A DNA stretch of 64,000 bases from an uncultured Candidatus Saccharibacteria bacterium (GTDB lineage Bacteria; Patescibacteriota; Minisyncoccia; Phycocordibacterales; Phycocordibacteraceae). The notes under the pieces are model-generated. The model did not search any database. It was given only the letters and a program-made list of their open reading frames with translations, and was not told the origin of the DNA. Shown here piece by piece: positions 45,157-57,071 of this stretch. Numbering within the stretch: the stretch's first letter is position 1; each line of letters starts with the position of its first letter. The stretch covers positions 418,064 through 482,063 of the forward strand of contig CAYMNZ010000001.1 in assembly GCA_964391975.1 (NCBI GenBank), read 5' to 3'. Made by a program: the position numbers and the translations under genes.

Positions 45157-45660
45157 TTACCTCTTGGCCAAGAACTCCAGACGCGATTTCTCTGCCACCC
45201 GCAGTACCTCTTCCCGTGGGTTAAGGAGAATTGGATACCCCTCCCCACTGACCTCTGCGTCATAGTCTTGCCCCGCAGGAAGGATTTCCGTGGATGCACT
45301 TACAGAGCTGCCATTGTCTTCACGTACCGTGACGTCGATGACGTCGAACCAGCCGAGGTCGACTAGTTCCCAGTCACGAATAATCGCTCGCTCATCTTCA
45401 GTGACCTCCCACACCATGCCGGCCACCTTCGCTTCCGGGTCAGGAACCGTCACGTAACTTCTGAAACTGTCTGGCCATTCAACTCGAAGCACCTCCTGCG
45501 CAGAAGCAGGTACTTGGTCAATGCGCTGTATGCAAAGTCGCATTCCCGCTACCGAACCGGCAGTTCCGGTAGGACGACGGCCAATCACGGCTTCCATCAC
45601 CTCCTCGCTACTCATCGCTCCGTAGCCAAAATACTTCATGGCTATTTCTTCTCTCTCCAC
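45157..45660 (-). CDS. Hypothetical protein, possibly gamma-glutamyl cyclotransferase (AIG2/GGCT)-like
   Basis: N-terminal YFGYGAMSSE resembles the YGSN motif of GGCT-like proteins. An alternative start at MKYFGYG (45639) abuts the trmD stop. Confidence 0.4.
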   Translation of the reverse strand: MEREEIAMKYFGYGAMSSEEVMEAVIGRRPTGTAGSVAGMRLCIQRIDQVPASAQEVLRVEWPDSFRSYVTVPDPEAKVAGMVWEVTEDERAIIRDWELVDLGWFDVIDVTVREDNGSSVSASTEILPAGQDYDAEVSGEGYPILLNPREEVLRVAEKSRLEFLAKR

Positions 45661-46292
45661 CCATCAATCTTCGCGTGGTTCCCGGTCTTAAGAACCGCCG
45701 GCACCTTATAAATCTTCCCCTCCCACTTGATAGCGTCGGGTCGTGTGTAGACCGCACTTGAGGCAATGCGACGCTCCTCTACTGACTCGTCCTTTCCAAG
45801 TACACCTGGGAGTCTGCGGGTAACCGCGTCCACAATCGCGAGCGCCGGCACTTCCCCTCCAGTAAGCACCGCCTCCCCTACTGAGTACGTTTTCAGGGTT
45901 CCCATGGTCTTCAAAATCTTTGCAGCACGCTCATCAATGCCTTCGTAGCGGCCGCAGACCAACACGACATTGTCGAACTTACCGAGCTTGTCAGCTTCCT
46001 TGTTATCAAATGCTTTAGCTCCTGGAGAGAACCACACGAGCGCCGTCTTCCCTTTCTTGCGTCCAAGAGATTTCTTCGCAGCCCGTACAACCGGAAGCGC
46101 AGTCATCACCATGCCAGGACCTCCACCATACGGGCGCTCATCTACCTTCCCCCACTTGTTATCAACGAAATCCCGAGGAGATTGATACACCACATGCATC
46201 TTCTTGTTCTTGCGTGCGCGCCCAAGAATGGAAGCCGAAAGATACGCCTCGCAGGCCTCCGGGAAGAGCGTAATGAGATGGAACGTGACCAT
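45642..46292 (-). CDS. trmD: tRNA (guanine37-N1)-methyltransferase
   Basis: SPOUT/TrmD motifs (ITLFPE..., YGGGPGMVM..., VVLVCGRYEGIDER). Start is taken at MVTFHLITLFPE. Confidence 0.88.
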   Translation of the reverse strand: MVTFHLITLFPEACEAYLSASILGRARKNKKMHVVYQSPRDFVDNKWGKVDERPYGGGPGMVMTALPVVRAAKKSLGRKKGKTALVWFSPGAKAFDNKEADKLGKFDNVVLVCGRYEGIDERAAKILKTMGTLKTYSVGEAVLTGGEVPALAIVDAVTRRLPGVLGKDESVEERRIASSAVYTRPDAIKWEGKIYKVPAVLKTGNHAKIDGWREKK

Positions 46293-46311
46293 AACCGGCA
46301 CACTACCACGA

Positions 46312-46343
46312 AAAACCGCCGCTAAAAGCGGCGGTTTTCTCTT
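46312..46343 (-). terminator. Rho-independent terminator for the minus-strand secreted-protein gene (CCGCCGC-TAAAA-GCGGCGG plus a U-run on minus)
   Basis: GC hairpin with A5 5' on plus, which is T5 3' on minus, just after the stop at 46359. Confidence 0.75.
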
Positions 46344-46358
46344 CAAACAACAACGTGT

Positions 46359-46910
46359 TTAGAGTGCGAGCTTCACCTCAAAATTACCGCGGAAACCAAC
46401 ACCACCTTCGATAGGCTCACCAAGTTCCCCGACCATGACGTCGAATCCTCCGTCCTCGTGCGCGAAGACGCCAATCTCATCTCCACTTCCAGCAAACCAA
46501 CACTGTGCAGCCGAAAGCTCTCCCGCAAGAAGACCCTTGCCGTCAACGCCGCCGTTCGCGCCGATTTCGTTACAAGACCCAGCATAGGTACCCATAGCGT
46601 GTGCAGTTCCGTTAATGGTGACCGTGACCTTGGTCTGCGGAACACCATTGACCTCTGTGAGCTCATCGAACTTCCAGGAAATAGAGGTCTTTGCAGTGCC
46701 CAGTTGTGCCGACTCAAGTTCAATCCATCCTTTCTGTCGTGCGCTCTCGCCCCCTGTCTCCTGATTCCCCTCTTCCATCTTTACCTCGTCAGGGGCCTGA
46801 AGCACCTGTGGGTTAAGCGCAACATATCCTCCGCCCGCAACAACGATAAGCCCGAGCACTACTAACAGGGCCGTGACGGCCGCGAATCCTTTGTGGTAGT
46901 TCATACGCAT
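46359..46910 (-). CDS. Secreted or anchored hypothetical protein
   Basis: N-terminal TM/signal (AAVTALLVVLGLIVVAGGG); Gly-rich. Confidence 0.5.
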   Translation of the reverse strand: MRMNYHKGFAAVTALLVVLGLIVVAGGGYVALNPQVLQAPDEVKMEEGNQETGGESARQKGWIELESAQLGTAKTSISWKFDELTEVNGVPQTKVTVTINGTAHAMGTYAGSCNEIGANGGVDGKGLLAGELSAAQCWFAGSGDEIGVFAHEDGGFDVMVGELGEPIEGGVGFRGNFEVKLAL

Positions 46911-46957
46911 AAGTATATAGCCGCTTCGGGCGGTTCAAGACAGACGTGTGGATGGCC

Positions 46958-47338
46958 CTAAGCGTACTCGATGTCGAGCCTGCCGGTGATGATGTCGAGC
47001 TTCGCGAGCTCCGCCTTCACGTCGTGAATTTGATCACTATGCACTTTTCCAAAGAATGCTGAATCGACAGGAATGAAAGTGAGTGGGGTGATGGCATCGG
47101 TAGCGTGTATGTCCGTAATCGCATCGGCAAGCACGATGCCACCTGACGCGTGGAGCGCGTGAATCTTCTTATCGCGACCTTGCTGGTACACCGCGACGCA
47201 CGCAGTGTTCGAGCATTCGTTTCGCAGACGTGTAGCGAACGCCTCAGCCGTCTCCTGTGCGGCTGTTTTTGTCTCCGCAGCTCGTGCAAGGTTTCCGTCT
47301 AACATCCCCTGATTATAGCTCGTCGACCACCTGGTCAA
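46958..47338 (-). CDS. Hypothetical protein occupying the rimM position of the rpsP-KH-rimM-trmD cluster (not RimM-like)
   Basis: 126-aa ORF overlapping the KH gene by 26 nt; the real start is probably internal (MLDGNL...). Confidence 0.4.
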   Translation of the reverse strand: MTRWSTSYNQGMLDGNLARAAETKTAAQETAEAFATRLRNECSNTACVAVYQQGRDKKIHALHASGGIVLADAITDIHATDAITPLTFIPVDSAFFGKVHSDQIHDVKAELAKLDIITGRLDIEYA

Positions 47339-47606
47339 CCGTCTTCTCCTCTCGCTTGCCGCCTACTGGCTCGTTCACCTTGAGGTTCACGCGAGCGTTG
47401 TGCTTCATGCCCACCACACGAAGGAGGGTGCGAATCGCCTTAGCGATGTTCCCTTCTTTACCGATAATCTTGCCCATGTCATCAGCAGCAACGGTGAGCG
47501 TAAGGAGGACTCCCATCTCATCAACTGAGCGGGCAATTTCTACTTGGTCCGGGTTATCAACCAGAGACTTAACAACGTACTCGAGAAATGCGTGGTCTTG
47601 TTCCAT
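47313..47606 (-). CDS. KH-domain RNA-binding protein (UPF0109/YlqC-like)
   Basis: GKIIGKEGNIAKAIRTL GXXG loop KH motif; conserved position after rpsP. Confidence 0.8.
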   Translation of the reverse strand: MEQDHAFLEYVVKSLVDNPDQVEIARSVDEMGVLLTLTVAADDMGKIIGKEGNIAKAIRTLLRVVGMKHNARVNLKVNEPVGGKREEKTVDQVVDEL

Positions 47607-47674
47607 AAAAGAGTGTTCAGAGTTACGGGATATTCAGCTAATGGAAGCACAGGCCGCAGGAAGCGGCGATGAAG

Positions 47675-48145
47675 TTAGGCGGCCGGTGTCTCTTCTGCAG
47701 GCGTCTCGGCAGCAACCTCAGCTGGAGCCTCCTCCACTGCGGGTGCTGCTTCTGCTACTACCTCCTCAGGAGCTGGCTCTGCCTCAGCGATAGCGGCCTC
47801 AACGACCTCCTCGCTGGTTGCCTCTGCGGCAGGGGCTGCTGGAGCAGCTACCTCAGGCTCGTCCTTCTTGATAGGAGACTTCTTAGGAAGAACGTTCACC
47901 TTCTTACCCTCGATAATCTTCTTGTCGATGAGGAGGTTAGAGAGCGATGGGGAGAGCTGGGCACCCTGAGAAATCCAGTGCTTGATGCGGTCCCCCTGGG
48001 CAGCAAACTGCTTGGTCTTTGGGTTGTAGGTACCGACAACCTCGACATTGGTACCCGCCTTAGGGCCCGATGCCTTCTCGAGTACGACCATACGGAACGA
48101 CGGGTCGTTCTTACGGCCGATGCGCTGGAGGCGTACCATCAACAT
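47675..48145 (-). CDS. rpsP: 30S ribosomal protein S16 with a long Ala/Pro/Glu-rich C-terminal extension
   Basis: N-terminal MLMVRLQRIGRKNDPSFRMVV...GTYNP (S16 core); about 75 aa of AAPAAPAAEATSEEVVEAA... low-complexity tail. Confidence 0.85.
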   Translation of the reverse strand: MLMVRLQRIGRKNDPSFRMVVLEKASGPKAGTNVEVVGTYNPKTKQFAAQGDRIKHWISQGAQLSPSLSNLLIDKKIIEGKKVNVLPKKSPIKKDEPEVAAPAAPAAEATSEEVVEAAIAEAEPAPEEVVAEAAPAVEEAPAEVAAETPAEETPAA

Positions 48146-51495: not shown

Positions 51496-51849
51496 CTAAC
51501 GGCTCCGGCCGTCAAAGGGCATGCGAGTGAGTTTCGTGAGATCTATCCCCTCTATAGTCCTTACGTTGATAGCTGCCCCAAGAGTCCCATCCGGCATAGG
51601 AGCGCGTCCGAAGCACTGGGTCCCGCAGGTCTTACAGAACTGGTGCTTAATCTTCTCGGTATTGAAACGGTACTCCGCGAGGTTGTCTTCCCCTGAAAGG
51701 ATAGAGAGCTTCTCTCCGGGTACGAAGGAGAGCAGGAGTCCCTGAGCTTCGCAGTAGGAGCAGTTGCACTCAACAACAGGCTGCGAGAGGTCTATCTCAA
51801 CCTCGTAGGTAACTGCACCACAATGACATTTGCCTGTTCGTTTTTCCAT
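51496..51849 (-). CDS. GFA-family (CENP-V/glutathione-dependent formaldehyde-activating-like) zinc protein
   Basis: CHCGAV...C..C and CKTCG Zn-binding cysteines in the GFA arrangement. Confidence 0.7.
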   Translation of the reverse strand: MEKRTGKCHCGAVTYEVEIDLSQPVVECNCSYCEAQGLLLSFVPGEKLSILSGEDNLAEYRFNTEKIKHQFCKTCGTQCFGRAPMPDGTLGAAINVRTIEGIDLTKLTRMPFDGRSR

Positions 51850-51850
51850 A

Positions 51851-54061
51851 TTATTTGGCGACCGTCATGGCCTCCTCGAATTTAACTGATAGAAGCTTCG
51901 ATATACCGTCGTTACCCATGGTGACCCCGTAGAGAATACCTGCGCGCGACATCGTCTCGCGGTTGTGCGTGATGACGACCAGCTGCGACTTCTTAGCGAG
52001 GCTCTCAATCATGTCGCCGTAGCGGCGAGAGTTGGCCTCGTCGAGTGCTGCATCCGTCTCATCGAGAATCAAGAATGGTGGCGGGTTCACCTGACTCATG
52101 GCAAAGATGAGCGCGATGGAGGTAAGTGCACGCTCGCCTCCGGAAAGCTGCATCAAAGACTGCACACGCTTCTTTGGGAGGCTCACTGAAATCTCAATAC
52201 CTGCCTTCTGCTGTTTCTTTGGTCCTTCTTCCTGCATCTCTTCCTCCTCGTCTTCTTCAGCGTCATCGAACTCTTCAAGCACGAGACGCGCGCTTCCTCC
52301 TCCGAACATGAGTGCAAAGAATTCACTGAACGATTCGTTCACCTTCTTAAGTCCCTCAGAGAAGGATTTTCCGAGTTCTTCATCAAGGTTGCCGATAAGT
52401 TCACGAAGTCCCTCTGCCGACTTCGCGAGGTCCTCAAGTTCACGAGCAAGAAATTGTTCGCGCTCGCTCGCCTCCTTAAACTCAGTGCGCACCTCCTCTC
52501 CAGTACCTCCCGCTTCTTCCACGCGAATCTTGAGGCGCTCCATCGTCTTCTTACGTTCCTCCTGCACCCGGCGCTCTTCCTCAGGAAGTCTGTCGAGCGG
52601 TGCATAGGAAAGCGCTGCGGCGCCCGCAAGCGCGAGCACCTCAGCACGATCGCGCTCAAGCTCATCAGCAAGCGACTGCAGTTCTCCTTGCCTGCTTTCC
52701 TCCCGCAGCACCGCTGCCTCTTCACGCGCCTTCGCTTCCGCCATATCGAGCACACGGAACTGATTCTCGCGCCCAGTCTCCTCGTGCACTGAGACTGCTT
52801 CGCGTGCTTTGACGAGCGCGTGGCGCGCCTTCTCAGAGGCTGCGGAGAGTTCCTGCTCTCGTGCGGCAAGACCTTTGCGCTCCTCCTCAAGTGTATAGAC
52901 CGCGCGCTCTTCTTCAGCTAGGTATTCGCTTTCTGGCGAGACGAAGCGGTCGAAGAAGGCAGCCACAGCGTTCTTAAGTGCAATGAGCGCAGCACGGAGC
53001 GCACTTGCGTCTGCTCCCTCAGCAACCGTTGCCTGTGCATCAAGCTCCTTCCGAAGTTCACCAAGCTGCTCGCGAGGAACCTTCACATACGGCTCTTCTT
53101 TTACCGCTTCCGCACGACGCTTCGCAGCCTCAAGTGCTCCTTCAACGCGACCCATCTCACGAGAAATAGTTCCCTGCTCGGCAAGCGCGCGGTCTACTTC
53201 GCGCTCTGCAGCACGCACGGCGTCTGCCCTCTTGAGTCCCTCAGTGTCGAGCGTCGCGCGGTCTTGAAGTGGAGCGAGTGCTGCAGTAGCAACCGCAAGA
53301 CGCTCTTTAGCATCTGAAAGGCGCGTGGTTGAAGCAGCCTTCTCACTTCTGACATAGAGTTCCTCGATGGCGAAGTACTCGCGACACGCATCGGTGAGCG
53401 ACTTGATGAGCTCCTCTGCACGCTCAAGCTTCTCTACCTGCTTGCCGAGGAACTTTAGGTGCGGAAGGATTTCACGACGCAGTGCCTCCACCTGCTTTAC
53501 GTTATCCTCGGTCTTCTCAAGCTTGCGTTCTGCCTCCTGTTTTTTGAACTCATAGACCTTGAGGCCAAGTGCGTCCTCGAGCATGGCGCGGCGCTCACGT
53601 GGGTGCGAGAGAAGAATGCGGTCTGCCTCACCTTGAGAAATGATGTGGTGCCCGGTGTCGCCAATGTTCGCGCTGGCGAGCAGTTCCTGCACATCACGGA
53701 GGCGTACCTTCGAGCCGTTGATTGAGTACTCACTCGCCCCATCACGGAAGACGGCACGCTCGATTGACACCTCCTCAAACTCACACTTCGGGAAGATGCG
53801 CTTCTTGTTATCAAATACGACCGACACCGACGCCCGGTTGGACCGTGGCGCAGTGTTAGAACCGCTCCAGATAAGGTCCTCGCTGCGCTTCCCGCGCATG
53901 CTCTTCATAGACTGCTCGCCAAGCGCGAAGCGGAAGGCTTCAGCAACGTTACTCTTTCCTGAGCCGTTAGGGCCCACAATGGAAGTTACGGACGACGAGA
54001 AATCAAGCGCGGTTTTCTTCGCGAATGATTTGAACCCCGCGATCTCAAGTCGCTTTAGCAT
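51851..54061 (-). CDS. smc: SMC-family ATPase lacking a hinge domain (short SMC, 736 aa)
   Basis: N-terminal Walker A GPNGSGKSN, long Glu/Arg/Ala coiled coil, C-terminal signature LSGGERALTSIAL and Walker B FLILDETDAALD. No Gly-rich hinge segment is visible. It sits immediately downstream of rnc. Confidence 0.75.
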   Translation of the reverse strand: MLKRLEIAGFKSFAKKTALDFSSSVTSIVGPNGSGKSNVAEAFRFALGEQSMKSMRGKRSEDLIWSGSNTAPRSNRASVSVVFDNKKRIFPKCEFEEVSIERAVFRDGASEYSINGSKVRLRDVQELLASANIGDTGHHIISQGEADRILLSHPRERRAMLEDALGLKVYEFKKQEAERKLEKTEDNVKQVEALRREILPHLKFLGKQVEKLERAEELIKSLTDACREYFAIEELYVRSEKAASTTRLSDAKERLAVATAALAPLQDRATLDTEGLKRADAVRAAEREVDRALAEQGTISREMGRVEGALEAAKRRAEAVKEEPYVKVPREQLGELRKELDAQATVAEGADASALRAALIALKNAVAAFFDRFVSPESEYLAEEERAVYTLEEERKGLAAREQELSAASEKARHALVKAREAVSVHEETGRENQFRVLDMAEAKAREEAAVLREESRQGELQSLADELERDRAEVLALAGAAALSYAPLDRLPEEERRVQEERKKTMERLKIRVEEAGGTGEEVRTEFKEASEREQFLARELEDLAKSAEGLRELIGNLDEELGKSFSEGLKKVNESFSEFFALMFGGGSARLVLEEFDDAEEDEEEEMQEEGPKKQQKAGIEISVSLPKKRVQSLMQLSGGERALTSIALIFAMSQVNPPPFLILDETDAALDEANSRRYGDMIESLAKKSQLVVITHNRETMSRAGILYGVTMGNDGISKLLSVKFEEAMTVAK

Positions 54062-54077
54062 TTAGAGCAATTATAAC

Positions 54078-54767
54078 CTACCAACCCTTCTTCTTGAGCC
54101 CGTTCCCAGCAGCATCCTGCTCCGCCTCTTGCTTGCTCTTCCCTTTCCCGCGTGCAACTTCCTCGTCTTTCACAAAGACGGCGACGGTGAAATGACGGTC
54201 GTGGTCAGGCCCCGTCTCATCAATGGTCTTGTAATGCGGGGTGGTTCCCTCCTTCTCCTGGGAAGCTTCTTGGAACTTGCTTTTGGCGTCCTGGTACGAG
54301 CGCTTCTCAAGCACGCTGTCGAGCTTCGGATAGAGGTGCTTCTCAAGGAACGTAACCGCGGTGTCGTAGCCCTGGTCCAAATACAAAGCACCGAGCAATG
54401 CCTCAAACGCATTGGCAAGAATAATCTGGCGTGCGCGTCCCGTATCGCGCTTCTCCCCTTTCGACAGAAGCAGCATGTCGTTCATACCAAGGCGCTCGGC
54501 AACCTCGGCAATCGAATAGGTGTTCACCAAAGCCGCGCGGTAGGCAGTGAGGTCGCCCTCTGGTTTCTGTGGGAACTTGTCATAGAGCATGCGCGTAGTC
54601 GCGAGCTCAAGCACCGCGTCACCAAGAAACTCAAGGCGCTCGTTGTGCGCTTTCGAACTCCGGTTTTCATTCAAATAGGAGCGGTGCGTCAACGCCTCCT
54701 CGAGGAGCTCGAGGTCTTTGAAGGTGAGCCCGAGCTTTTGGGCGGCTTCCGTGAAGTCCATACGCAA
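54078..54767 (-). CDS. rnc: Ribonuclease III
   Basis: Signature ERLEFLGDAVLEL and a C-terminal dsRBD. Confidence 0.92.
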   Translation of the reverse strand: MRMDFTEAAQKLGLTFKDLELLEEALTHRSYLNENRSSKAHNERLEFLGDAVLELATTRMLYDKFPQKPEGDLTAYRAALVNTYSIAEVAERLGMNDMLLLSKGEKRDTGRARQIILANAFEALLGALYLDQGYDTAVTFLEKHLYPKLDSVLEKRSYQDAKSKFQEASQEKEGTTPHYKTIDETGPDHDRHFTVAVFVKDEEVARGKGKSKQEAEQDAAGNGLKKKGW

Positions 54768-54823: not shown

Positions 54824-55297
54824 CTACCTTAACTGACGGATATCCTCTAAATCGACTTCTCTTCCCAGTTTCGTCTTATAGGCGATGAGCGGCTCTTTTC
54901 TTAGAACCGGCACCATCAATCCTTCAAATTGTTTCGGTTCGAAATCCATGTCGGATGGTTGAAGCGTCCTTTCCCCTGTCTTTGAGATTATGTACACCTC
55001 TTCTACCTGATTAATGTCGATAGGCACACCGTCTATCTCTAACTTCATTATCCAAATATCGAACTGATCGTCAGGACCTTCCATATCGTTGTTCCAGTCT
55101 TCAGTTATGTAGTCTTCGAAGAGTGAGCGCACCGTTTCTACATCTCTTTTATGTATCTCCAGGTCAATATCGTAGAGAGAGCGATTAACACCATGAATAA
55201 TTGCAGCGAGTCCACCACTTACCTGAAACTCAATATTGTTCTTCTGTAACGTCTCAACGAGACGTTCGAGTACTTCCTTCTGGATTTCCGTTAGCAT
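54824..55297 (-). CDS. Small nucleotidyltransferase (Pol-beta superfamily; ANT(2'')/Lnu-like minimal NTase); markedly low GC
   Basis: GGLAAIIHGVNRSLYDIDLEI aligns with the GG..(x)..R..DIDL pattern of small antibiotic/substrate nucleotidyltransferases. I estimate gene GC at about 42% versus about 58% for the window. Confidence 0.6.
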   Translation of the reverse strand: MLTEIQKEVLERLVETLQKNNIEFQVSGGLAAIIHGVNRSLYDIDLEIHKRDVETVRSLFEDYITEDWNNDMEGPDDQFDIWIMKLEIDGVPIDINQVEEVYIISKTGERTLQPSDMDFEPKQFEGLMVPVLRKEPLIAYKTKLGREVDLEDIRQLR

Positions 55298-55342: not shown

Positions 55343-56242
55343 TTACTTCCCCGCCTTATCCAGCAGTTTCTGCACGGCAGCCGTCACAATAGGAAGCATG
55401 TCGTCGTAGAAGTTGAGCGCCCGGATATCTGGAAGCCTGAACCAGCGCGCATCATCAAGTCCCCCGCTCTGCTTGAGGTTGAGCTTCGCAAACTCTGCCT
55501 TCACAAGGAAGAAATAGACGTGCTTGCGAACCTTTCCCTTCTCGGGGTGTGAAGCGATGTACTCGTTCTCACCCACCATGTCTTCAATTGTTCCTTCAAG
55601 ACCAAGCTCTTCCTTCACCACACGAGCAACACCCTCCTCGGGAGTGGCGTCGTTCTCGATGTGCCCTTTAGAGAGCGTCCAGCGCCCGAAGACGTCATGG
55701 ACAAGCGCGACATAGTACTGAGTCTCATGCACCGCGTACACGATGGCGCCACCAAGCTTTTCCATTGGAAGCGTGCTGACATCCACGCGCTCCTTCTTCT
55801 TGCTGGTGTCTTCCTTGCCCGGCTCTCCCATCTCTTTGTAGACAGCGCCCAGCACTCCGTTGATGAAGCGTCCGGAAGAATCTCCGCCGAAAATCTTAGC
55901 GAGTTCAATCGCTTCGTTAATCGCAACCTTCGGCGGCACCTGCGCACGGTCAGCAAAAAGAAGCTCGTAGAGACCAAGTCTCAATATGTTGCGGTCTATC
56001 GGCGCGATGCGGTCGATGGGCCAGTCTGGTGCGGCTTTCTGTATGACAAGGTCGAGGTCATCGCGCTTGGCGAGTACACCCTCAAGGAGAGATTCCATAA
56101 ACTGGCCTTCCGTGTCGTCCCCGCCGAACTCGCGAGTGTTGCGGGCAAGGATGTCGGTGACGTCAGCATCGGCAACGTTGGCCGTATCCCACTCGAAGAG
56201 GGTCTGAAGGACGAGCGAACGCGCGAGATGCCGATTAGCCAT
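55343..56242 (-). CDS. nusB: Fusion protein: N-terminal NusB-family (transcription antitermination) domain plus C-terminal Nudix hydrolase domain
   Basis: The NusB core (ARSLVLQTLFEWD..., RIAPIDRNILRLGLYELLF...PPKVAINEAIELAKIFGGDSSGRFINGVLGAV) continues in the same ORF into a Nudix box GHIENDATPEEGVARVVKEELGLEG. Confidence 0.75.
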   Translation of the reverse strand: MANRHLARSLVLQTLFEWDTANVADADVTDILARNTREFGGDDTEGQFMESLLEGVLAKRDDLDLVIQKAAPDWPIDRIAPIDRNILRLGLYELLFADRAQVPPKVAINEAIELAKIFGGDSSGRFINGVLGAVYKEMGEPGKEDTSKKKERVDVSTLPMEKLGGAIVYAVHETQYYVALVHDVFGRWTLSKGHIENDATPEEGVARVVKEELGLEGTIEDMVGENEYIASHPEKGKVRKHVYFFLVKAEFAKLNLKQSGGLDDARWFRLPDIRALNFYDDMLPIVTAAVQKLLDKAGK

Positions 56243-56732: not shown

Positions 56733-57071
56733 TTACACTCCTCCTCCCATTCCTGAGCGGGCTTTCGCCTTGCCCTTGGTCATACGACCGAGGAGTCCGG
56801 TCTTCTTCTCCTTTGGCTTCTCCTCCTTCTCGAGGTGGACGTGGCCTTCTGCAGGACCAACAGCATCTGCCTTGGCGTAGTCCTTCTTCTCCTTCTTTAC
56901 CTTCGGAGGGGCGATAAGCTTTCCGCGGTACATACCAGTCTTCTCATCAAGGCGGTGTGGCAGGCGGAGGTTGCCCGTCTCCTTGTCGGTGAGAATCTTC
57001 TTGTTCTTGAGGGCATGATGACTCCTACGATTCTTCGTATGGGAGCTCGTGTGGCGCATCCGTATAGACAT
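56733..57071 (-). CDS. rpmF: 50S ribosomal protein L32 with a Lys-rich C-terminal extension (112 aa)
   Basis: N-terminal MRHTSSHTKNRRSHHALK matches the L32 core; about 55 extra residues rich in K/E. Confidence 0.75.
   Translation of the reverse strand: MSIRMRHTSSHTKNRRSHHALKNKKILTDKETGNLRLPHRLDEKTGMYRGKLIAPPKVKKEKKDYAKADAVGPAEGHVHLEKEEKPKEKKTGLLGRMTKGKAKARSGMGGGV

What the first reader, a model, noticed from the sequence alone, without database searches (positions are those of the whole stretch)
51851..54767. Hinge-less short SMC in the conserved rnc-smc position
The 736-aa protein has a textbook SMC head (Walker A GPNGSGKSN; C-terminal LSGGERALTSIAL signature; Walker B FLILDETDAALD) joined by one continuous Glu/Arg/Ala-rich coiled coil. 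There is no central Gly-rich hinge domain. It sits directly downstream of RNase III, the rnc-smc synteny known from Firmicutes. A hinge-less SMC resembles RecN or an SbcC-like rod more than a condensin. It raises the question of how, or whether, this organism dimerises and loads a condensin. No scpA/scpB or ftsY is visible nearby.
Basis: partly seen in the sequence, partly recalled or inferred. Interest (0 to 1): 0.55.

Follow-up and report, generated by a model that had tools for sequence, protein, structure and literature searches.

The report
Naturally hinge-less short SMC of Patescibacteria
This is the ordinary chromosome-organising smc gene of a tiny-genome Patescibacteria (CPR) bacterium. 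Here, and in every Patescibacterial relative I sampled, the protein has lost the central hinge that normally joins two SMC molecules and has arms about 60% of normal length, so it is a natural test of what the hinge is for.

Summary
Window 51851-54061 (-) encodes a 736-aa protein with an intact SMC ATPase head, 16 nt downstream of RNase III.

**Not an artefact.** The identical protein sits on 12 contigs, including a 742-kb one. More than 150 clusters at 50% identity share the 700-780-aa architecture. Further Patescibacterial orthologues of 711-996 aa also lack the hinge. All examined lie in the ancestral nusB-rnc-smc-rpsP-khpA-trmD cluster.

**Identity.** By sequence and fold it is Smc, not RecN or Rad50/SbcC.

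**Unresolved.**
- How it dimerises. My inference is the unusually hydrophobic tip helix 352-373.
- Whether ScpAB exists. None was found in about 84 kb of this genome or within 10 kb of smc in about 28 related loci.

**Novelty.** A 2025 paper reports hinge-less SMCs in marine metagenomes assigned to Actinomycetes. I found nothing on Patescibacteria. I rate it a new variant of a known kind, of moderate to high interest.

The parts
51851..54061 (-). smc orthologue: 736-aa hinge-less short SMC (coordinates include the stop codon)
   Evidence: ORF. SMC_N spans residues 1-721 at 8.3e-69 with no SMC_hinge. TIGR02168 scores 536.5 bits. The identical protein is on 12 contigs.
53561..54061 (-). N-terminal half of the ATPase head, residues 1-167. 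Holds Walker A G30-S37 (nt 53951-53974), R56 and Q-loop Q143.
   Evidence: Invariant columns. Aligns to B. subtilis Smc head residues 3-200. AF2 pLDDT about 90.
52943..53560 (-). N-terminal strand of the arm, residues 168-373: neck, joint, distal arm and broken tip helices. Breaks lie at P200, about 271, 323-329 and 345-351.
   Evidence: AF2 helices 168-270, 273-322, 330-344 and 352-373. Family-wide proline and indel hot spots. Only residues up to about 225 align confidently to canonical Smc.
52943..53008 (-). Tip helix, residues 352-373 (SALRAALIALKNAVAAFFDRF). It is the most hydrophobic and least charged segment of the arm and is my candidate dimerisation surface (inferred).
   Evidence: Hydrophobic fraction 0.34-0.39 and charged fraction 0.14-0.28, against about 0.4 charged elsewhere in the arm. 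F369 and F370 are invariant in the close subfamily. F369 is at least 70% conserved in the wider family.
52928..52942 (-). Hairpin turn, residues 374-378 (VSPES), occupying the place of the roughly 170-aa canonical hinge
52382..52927 (-). C-terminal strand of the arm, residues 379-560. Includes the conserved HEETGRE (426-432) opposite the 323-329 break, the mid-arm loop 485-496 and the joint loop EEAGGTG (515-521).
   Evidence: AF2 helices 379-479, 497-517 and 522-586. The joint loop aligns to canonical EELGTVNLG with high confidence.
51851..52381 (-). C-terminal half of the head, residues 561-736. Holds the signature LSGGE 639-643 (nt 52133-52147), Walker B 663-668 (nt 52058-52075), the D-loop and H699. 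An acidic disordered insert spans residues 597-620 (nt 52202-52273).
   Evidence: pLDDT is below 50 at residues 606-615.
54078..54767 (-). rnc (RNase III), immediately upstream on the same strand
   Evidence: Pfam. rnc lies upstream of smc in 15 of 20 short-SMC loci and in 32 of 44 canonical-Smc loci.
55343..56242 (-). nusB-NUDIX fusion gene, part of the conserved upstream cluster
   Evidence: Pfam NusB 1.9e-33 and NUDIX 1.3e-12. Conserved neighbour in 15 of 20 loci.
45642..48145 (-). Downstream part of the ancestral cluster: rpsP (47675-48145), khpA-like KH protein (47313-47606) and trmD (45642-46292)
   Evidence: Precomputed Pfam on the source contig. The same order is seen in L001, L089, L090 and in Priestia L074.

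Best explanation
**Shown.** This is the orthologous smc gene of a Paceibacteria-type Patescibacterium (742-kb contig). It keeps a catalytically complete Smc ATPase head, the neck and the 'joint'. The canonical globular hinge and the hinge-proximal half of the arms are gone. Each arm strand is about 180-205 residues, roughly 27-30 nm, against about 344 residues and about 47 nm in B. subtilis. The two strands connect through a bare five-residue turn. The same hinge-less design, with arms of several lengths (proteins of 705-996 aa), is the rule for this gene in every Patescibacterial homologue I sampled.

**Inferred.** The protein still works as a minimal chromosome-organising SMC. Two hairpins pair constitutively through their hydrophobic tips (helix 352-373 and its partner strand), probably as a small helical bundle, and/or along the arms as a rod. 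ATP drives head engagement and DNA clamping on the conserved head surface (R59, R120, R122, which align with the B. subtilis head DNA-contact residues as I recall them). A kleisin, if the genome has one, would bridge neck and cap as in Smc-ScpAB.

**Evolutionary reading.** The hinge was dispensable in these 0.6-0.9-Mb genomes. This fits the experimental finding that the B. subtilis hinge can be swapped for an unrelated dimeriser.
For: **Identity as Smc.**
- TIGR02168 scores 536.5 bits.
- B. subtilis Smc head chains match at 1e-91.
- hhalign gives probability 100 over head, neck and joint.
- The top Foldseek hits are Smc head, coiled-coil and joint structures.
- The ancestral synteny rnc-smc...rpsP-khpA-trmD is shared with Firmicutes, Actinobacteria and Chloroflexi.

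**Hinge absent.**

**Real and under selection.**
- The identical protein is on 12 contigs.
- More than 100 clusters share 69-98% identity end to end.
- 150 clusters at 50% identity are mostly 700-780 aa, with a few shorter or partial sequences.
- The ATPase motifs are invariant.

**Tip as interface.** It is the least charged and most hydrophobic segment of the arm, with invariant F369 and F370.

**Plausibility.** Bürmann et al. 2017 (PMC5344682) showed that shortened arms can be functional. [quoted passage not shown]
Against: - No ScpA or ScpB was found in about 84 kb of this genome. None lies within 10 kb of smc in about 28 related loci. Only about 11% of the genome could be read.
- Two cultured Patescibacteria have no smc at the syntenic site, and no ScpA, ScpB or hinge Pfam family in their (partly truncated) annotation tables. 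SMC function is therefore dispensable in some relatives.
- Dimerisation was not modelled, because only monomer predictions were possible.
- The tip sequence is conserved only within the close subfamily. The 'hydrophobic tip' signal is equivocal in the other length classes.
- The protein falls just below NCBI's Smc equivalog cut-off (536.5 against 567.35).
Confidence: 0.6

Rival explanations
1. RecN-like mode. The hinge-less protein has no kleisin. It dimerises tip-to-tip into an extended rod or engages only through its heads. It tethers or bridges DNA (repair or simple cohesion) rather than forming an Smc-kleisin ring that extrudes loops.
For: The architecture (head plus short hairpin, no hinge) is that of RecN. 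RecN 4ad8 appears among the hairpin matches at rank 35. No ScpAB was detected anywhere I could look. Relatives can lose smc altogether.
Against: Sequence and fold are Smc, not RecN: 536 against 57 bits and the structural ranking. The neck and joint, the parts that bind kleisin and transmit the ATPase cycle in Smc, are the best-conserved parts of the arm. The gene keeps the housekeeping smc locus. Absence of ScpAB is untested for 89% of the genome.
Confidence: 0.2
2. Trans-complemented hinge. A separate, unrecognised protein caps or bridges the hairpin tips and supplies the dimerisation and DNA-binding role of the lost hinge.
For: The exposed hydrophobic tip and the near-invariant GxxxG (G304, G308) suggest protein-protein contacts. 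Several conserved-cluster neighbours have no Pfam family.
Against: No unknown gene is a conserved neighbour of smc across 20 loci. Every recurrent neighbour is a known housekeeping gene. Nothing positive supports a partner.
Confidence: 0.1
3. Defence-system SMC-like ATPase (Lamassu LmuB or MADS Mad3 type) rather than a chromosomal Smc.
Against: These scores are far below the Smc score. No defence partner genes are adjacent. The gene sits in a fixed housekeeping cluster in every genome examined and is near-universal in the clade. That is the opposite of the patchy distribution of defence islands.
Confidence: 0.03
4. Artefact: an assembly-collapsed or decaying full-length smc.
For: None beyond the short length.
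Against: The reading frame is intact. The identical protein is found in 12 independent contigs from several samples. Hundreds of homologues share the same length and align end to end. The catalytic residues are invariant.
Confidence: 0.01

Closest known systems
Canonical bacterial Smc (B. subtilis Smc of Smc-ScpAB; NCBIfam TIGR02168)
   Same: ATPase head, neck and joint are homologous: about 45% identity over the N-terminal 200-230 residues, and hhalign probability 100. Same genomic position after rnc and before rpsP/trmD. Intramolecular antiparallel coiled coil.
   Different: No hinge domain. Arms are about 55-60% of canonical length. An acidic insert sits in the C-terminal head. The score is just under the equivalog cut-off. 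Partners ScpA and ScpB were not found.
Engineered B. subtilis Mini-Smc and Smc(Zh) chimeras (Bürmann et al. 2017, PMC5344682)
   Same: Shortened arms and a non-hinge dimeriser on an otherwise normal Smc. Some of these constructs support growth.
   Different: The constructs keep either the hinge or a Rad50 zinc hook. The natural protein has neither, only a helical hairpin tip. Its strand length of about 180-205 aa lies between the natural length modes (163, 238 and 341 aa) reported for hinge-bearing Smc, so it is not directly comparable.
'Hinge-less' SMC clade from Tara Oceans metagenomes (Sussfeld et al. 2025, PMC12153180)
   Same: [quoted passage not shown] The authors judged it to belong to SMC rather than Rad50/SbcC.
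   Different: That clade was assigned to Actinomycetes and presented as a small oceanic cluster. The present family is Patescibacterial, very large, and shown to be the syntenic orthologue of smc. I could not test whether the two are one clade or convergent losses.
RecN
   Same: An SMC-superfamily head with a short antiparallel coiled coil that ends without a hinge.
   Different: RecN is about 550 aa and belongs to a different head subfamily (TIGR00634 scores 56.8 bits against a cut-off of 407.85). It acts in SOS and repair, and the genomic context differs.
Rad50 / SbcC
   Same: Head plus coiled-coil hairpin without a globular hinge.
   Different: These dimerise through a CxxC zinc hook, which is absent here. 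They pair with the Mre11/SbcD nuclease, which is not adjacent. NCBIfam scores are at most 49 bits against cut-offs of 700 or more.

Membership tests
Bacterial Smc (condensin-type SMC) | ABC-type ATPase head with Walker A, Q-loop, LSGGE signature, Walker B with catalytic Glu, D-loop and H-loop | tested here: met
   All motifs are present and invariant in 73 homologues.
Bacterial Smc (condensin-type SMC) | Specific homology of head, neck and joint to Smc rather than to other SMC-superfamily ATPases | tested here: met
   Best NCBIfam model is TIGR02168. PDB Smc heads match at 1e-91. hhalign covers residues 1-225 and 500-736. Foldseek's top hit is 5xei.
Bacterial Smc (condensin-type SMC) | Long intramolecular antiparallel coiled-coil arm | tested here: met
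   AF2 hairpin with pLDDT 92 for the distal half. It is shorter than canonical.
Bacterial Smc (condensin-type SMC) | Central globular hinge dimerisation domain (Pfam PF06470) | tested here: not met
   No hit at E<=1 in this protein or at E<=0.1 to E<=1 in 13 divergent relatives. Positive controls score 1e-29 and 1e-31. Fold searches find only hairpins.
Bacterial Smc (condensin-type SMC) | Reaches the curated equivalog score (TIGR02168 cut-off 567.35) | tested here: not met
   It scores 536.5 bits. This explains the public names 'AAA family ATPase'.
Bacterial Smc (condensin-type SMC) | Orthologous genomic position (rnc-smc ... rpsP-trmD cluster) | tested here: met
Bacterial Smc (condensin-type SMC) | Kleisin ScpA and ScpB encoded in the same genome | tested here: inconclusive
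   None found in about 84 kb of the 742-kb contig or in the flanks of about 28 related loci. The rest of the genome could not be read.
RecN | Matches the RecN equivalog (TIGR00634 cut-off 407.85) | tested here: not met
   56.8 bits.
Rad50 / SbcC | CxxC zinc hook at the coiled-coil apex, and a Rad50/SbcC head profile | tested here: not met
   The only cysteines are C93 and C226. Rad50 models score at most 49 bits against cut-offs of 700 or more. SbcC_Walker_B gives E=0.016, below threshold.
Lamassu LmuB / MADS Mad3 defence ATPases | Located in a defence operon with partner genes, with a patchy distribution | tested here: not met
   PADLOC profile hits exist. However, the neighbours are rnc, nusB, gdh, RNase R and rpsP in every genome examined.
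Marine 'hinge-less SMC' clade (Sussfeld 2025) | Membership of the same monophyletic cluster | not tested
Only the architecture is shared.

The most novel reading that the evidence does not exclude
A large part of the Candidate Phyla Radiation organises and segregates its chromosome with an Smc that has no hinge at all, and possibly no ScpAB kleisin. If so, neither the hinge nor perhaps the tripartite ring is required for the core SMC function. Together with relatives that have lost smc entirely, these lineages would capture stepwise dismantling of the condensin machine: canonical, then hinge-less, then none.
Probability: 0.25. Interest if true: 0.8.

Novelty: new variant of a known kind. Interest (0 to 1): 0.6.

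Why it matters
The hinge is treated as a defining SMC domain. It is the constitutive dimerisation site, a DNA-binding site and, in some models, a DNA gate. Its necessity has been tested only with engineered B. subtilis chimeras.

Here nature offers hundreds of diverged, selected, hinge-less orthologues with several discrete arm lengths, in organisms with chromosomes under 1 Mb. They make three open questions directly testable:
- What is the minimal SMC that still works?
- How do arm length and tip geometry constrain function?
- Does a kleisin ring persist when the hinge is lost?

There is also a practical point. These proteins fall below NCBI's Smc cut-off and are deposited as 'AAA family ATPase'. 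Surveys that define SMC by head plus hinge (for example the arm-length survey in PMC5344682) would exclude them by construction.

Tried and rejected
1. **ScpB in Patescibacteria by profile search.** I used five PDB-validated ScpB seeds. All 120 listed hits were streptococcal, so the search was uninformative.
2. **The same profile against viral contigs.** It gave two hits at 64-70% GC, which are not Patescibacteria.
3. **phmmer with ScpA and ScpB seeds** against every ORF of all held loci. The only hit was ScpA beside a canonical Smc in an Anaerolineae locus.
4. **Walking the 742-kb contig.** Look-ups accept only window proteins, so I gained only about 19 kb beyond the window.
5. **Literature searches** combining SMC, hinge, ScpA or ScpB with Patescibacteria, CPR or Parcubacteria. 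Nothing relevant turned up; one hit concerned the host's ScpAB.
6. **Least-charged 21-mer test.** I asked whether it sits at the arm midpoint. It peaked at the tip in the 690-800-aa class (127 of 320) but not in the longer classes, and the sequences are not independent. I treat this as weak evidence only.
7. **Arm periodicity.** I first read the arm as about 160 aa plus a 55-aa 'mini-hinge', matching the 163-aa mode of Bürmann 2017. The fragment model showed a continuous, broken hairpin instead, so I dropped that claim.
Full report
**Observation.** The minus-strand ORF at 51851-54061 encodes 736 residues. The N-terminus (MLKRLEIAGFKSF...) matches the start of canonical Smc. Walker A (GPNGSGKS, 30-37), Q143, the signature LSGGE (639-643), Walker B with the catalytic Glu (LILDETD, 664-670), the D-loop and H699 are all present. 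They are invariant in an alignment of 73 homologues sharing 38-84% identity. RNase III (54078-54767, Pfam 8.6e-39 plus dsrm) ends 16 nt upstream on the same strand. Residues 168-586 are Glu/Ala/Leu/Arg-rich.

**Is there a hinge?** Four independent tests say no.
1. Pfam finds SMC_N spanning residues 1-721 but no SMC_hinge even at E<=1. Thirteen divergent short relatives give nothing.
2. I compared a profile of the short family with an alignment of 44 canonical Smc proteins (hhalign). It aligns residues 1 to about 225 with canonical 1 to about 225, and residues about 500-736 with canonical about 968-1185, at maximal confidence. The second block includes the joint loop EEAGGTG, equivalent to EELGTVNLG. 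Residues 226-490 align with zero confidence, and nothing maps to the hinge at canonical 500-670.
3. AlphaFold2 on the full length (pLDDT 84) predicts only helices between the head halves. A second run on residues 262-440 is confident (pLDDT 92.3, pTM 0.74). It shows helix 273-322, loop 323-329, helix 330-344, loop 345-351, helix 352-373, a five-residue turn at 374-378, and a continuous return helix 379-439.

There is no CxxC hook; the only cysteines are C93 and C226.

**Arm anatomy.** Family-wide proline and indel hot spots fall at about 200, 255-275, 320-329, 370-385 and 480-499. They pair symmetrically about the turn at residue 376:
- the break at 271 lies opposite 481-496;
- the EPYVKVP break at 323-329 lies opposite the conserved HEETGRE at 426-432.

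This is what a simple folded-back hairpin predicts. Each strand is therefore about 180-205 residues. That is roughly 27-30 nm at the usual coiled-coil rise (my calculation), against 344 residues and about 47 nm for B. subtilis (PMC5344682). The tip helix 352-373 is the most hydrophobic and least charged stretch of the whole arm, in both the close and the broad alignments. F369 and F370 are invariant in the close subfamily.

**Is it real?** Yes.
- The identical protein is encoded on 12 contigs from different samples. One is the 742,107-bp JGI contig from which the window derives.
- More than 100 clusters at 90% identity share 69-98% identity over 100% of the length, at 725-770 aa. They are named Pacebacteria, Paceibacterota, Parcubacteria or Patescibacteria.
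- In a library of 50%-identity representatives, the best 150 hits are mostly 700-780 aa and mostly align in one end-to-end stretch.
- A scan of species-representative genomes finds the short form in MAGs labelled Parcubacteria, Paceibacterota, Azambacteria and Uhrbacteria.

Assembly collapse and pseudogenisation are excluded.

**Wider distribution.** I searched with the most divergent short member, the 810-aa protein of L021. It returned 120 proteins of 711-996 aa, with names including Kuenenbacteria, Komeilibacteria, Parcubacteria and Patescibacteria. None carries PF06470 in its precomputed domain list. A direct re-scan of seven of them at E<=1 confirms this. Three of these (804, 882 and 991 aa) lie in the same gene cluster. 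The hinge-less state is thus a property of the Patescibacterial smc orthologue generally, with several arm-length classes.

**What is it by homology?**
- NCBIfam ranks SMC_prok_B first at 536.5 bits, just under its 567.35 cut-off. RecN scores 56.8 bits and Rad50 at most 49 bits.
- The best PDB sequence matches are B. subtilis Smc head constructs at 1e-91.
- The best structural matches for the whole model are prokaryotic Smc head, coiled-coil and joint structures. Rad50 appears only at rank 24, and RecN is not in the top 50.
- PADLOC gives head-level hits to Mad3 and LmuB. The fixed housekeeping context argues against a defence role.

**Synteny.** On the source contig the order is rpmF, nusB-NUDIX, a nucleotidyltransferase, rnc, smc, GFA, gdh, RNase R, rpsP, khpA, two unknowns, trmD.
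- Across 20 short-SMC loci, rnc is the immediate upstream neighbour in 15, nusB is present in 15 and rpsP in 13.
- In 32 of 44 canonical-Smc loci from Firmicutes, Actinobacteria and Chloroflexi, rnc lies within the held flank of smc, upstream and co-oriented in nearly all. rpsP and trmD follow within 3-7 kb in several, including Priestia.

The gene is therefore the orthologue of smc, not a paralogue that happens to sit there.

**Partners.** No ScpA (PF02616), ScpB (PF04079) or FtsY was found among the precomputed annotations for the window and about 19 kb beyond it. A lenient Pfam scan of ten unannotated window ORFs found none either. phmmer with ScpA and ScpB seeds, which I validated against PDB chains, found none in any held Patescibacterial locus. 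This covers only about 11% of the genome, so presence elsewhere is unresolved. No unknown gene is a conserved neighbour of smc.

**Relatives without smc.** The annotation tables of two cultured Patescibacteria show rnc directly followed by rpsP, with no smc. They are Southlakia epibionticum (PMC10633639) and Minisyncoccus archaeiphilus (PMC12281837). Neither table lists a hinge, ScpA or ScpB family, though the Minisyncoccus table was truncated in storage. This suggests a reductive series: canonical Smc in the outgroups, hinge-less Smc in many Patescibacteria, and none in some.

**Mechanism.**
- *Shown:* an intact ATPase head; a conserved neck and joint; a hairpin arm with no hinge; strong purifying selection.
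- *From established knowledge:* Smc heads engage on ATP and clamp DNA. R59, R120 and R122 align with the B. subtilis head DNA-contact residues K60, R120 and K122 as I recall them from the literature; I did not test this here.
- *From the literature:* shortened arms can be functional, and the hinge can be replaced by the unrelated Rad50 zinc hook (PMC5344682).
- *Inferred:* constitutive homodimerisation through the hydrophobic hairpin tip and/or arm-arm packing, giving a short rod or ring that organises a 0.74-Mb chromosome.

The main rival is a RecN-like, kleisin-less tether. Gene-content analysis of closed genomes and a dimer model would decide between them.

**Novelty.** Full-text searches found no description of hinge-less Smc in Patescibacteria. 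Sussfeld et al. 2025 (PMC12153180) describe a small, abundant 'hinge-less' SMC clade in Tara Oceans data. [quoted passage not shown] The arm-length survey of Bürmann et al. 2017 required a recognisable hinge, so it would have excluded these proteins. I classify the finding as a new variant of a known kind. The gene is an Smc orthologue that fails one defining feature of the family, and it does so in every Patescibacterial homologue I sampled.

Noticed in passing
window 55343-56242 (-): NusB and a NUDIX hydrolase are fused in one 299-aa ORF. The same fusion occurs in L001. They are separate adjacent genes in S. epibionticum, and NusB stands alone in L090 and L091.
   Followed up: partly
window 56733-57071 (-) and 47675-48145 (-): Ribosomal proteins bL32 (112 aa) and bS16 (156 aa) are about twice the usual length as I recall it. 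Both carry Lys/Glu- or Ala/Glu/Pro-rich C-terminal tails.
   Followed up: no
window 52202-52273 (-), SMC residues 597-620: An acidic, disordered insert (EEFDDAEEDEEEEMQEEGPKKQQK; pLDDT below 50 at 606-615) sits in the C-terminal head lobe. It is absent from canonical Smc in the profile alignment and varies in length across the family.
   Followed up: partly
window 54062-54077: The 16-nt rnc-smc spacer GTTATAATTGCTCTAA contains a perfect TATAAT ending 8 nt before the smc ATG and has no Shine-Dalgarno-like sequence. It may be an internal promoter giving a leaderless or near-leaderless smc mRNA, or it may be chance.
   Followed up: no
SMC residues 304-308 (window 53138-53152) and 476-496 (window 52574-52636): A near-invariant GxxxG (GRVEG) lies inside the N-strand helix. 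A low-charge, Pro-containing mid-arm break (LALAGAAALSYAPL...) pairs with the N-strand break near residue 271. These may be an elbow or a partner contact; they remain unexplained.
   Followed up: partly
Literature supplements: S. epibionticum SEML1_0591-0594; M. archaeiphilus MNSC_04470-04480: In both cultured Patescibacteria, the conserved nusB-rnc-rpsP cluster has no smc between rnc and rpsP. Their annotation tables list no SMC_hinge, ScpA or ScpB family. The Minisyncoccus table was truncated in storage.
   Followed up: partly
P0399-P0518; L089, L090, L091: Hinge-less Patescibacterial SMC orthologues fall into discrete length classes of about 705-780, 800-830, 860-895, 930 and 990 aa. This hints at quantised arm lengths. 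The sampling is biased by my choice of queries.
   Followed up: partly
window 51496-51849 (-) and 54824-55297 (-): A GFA-family protein (glutathione-dependent formaldehyde-activating-like, 1.2e-14) starts 1 nt after the smc stop. An aminoglycoside-2''-adenylyltransferase-like nucleotidyltransferase sits between nusB and rnc. Both are absent from the relative L001, so they are recent insertions into the cluster.
   Followed up: no
window 51851-54061, database names: Public records name this family 'AAA family ATPase' more often than 'chromosome segregation protein', probably because it scores 536.5 against the 567.35 TIGR02168 cut-off. Some MAGs carrying it are labelled Bacillota, Alphaproteobacteria, Bdellovibrionales or Gammaproteobacteria, which are probably binning or labelling errors.
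   Followed up: no
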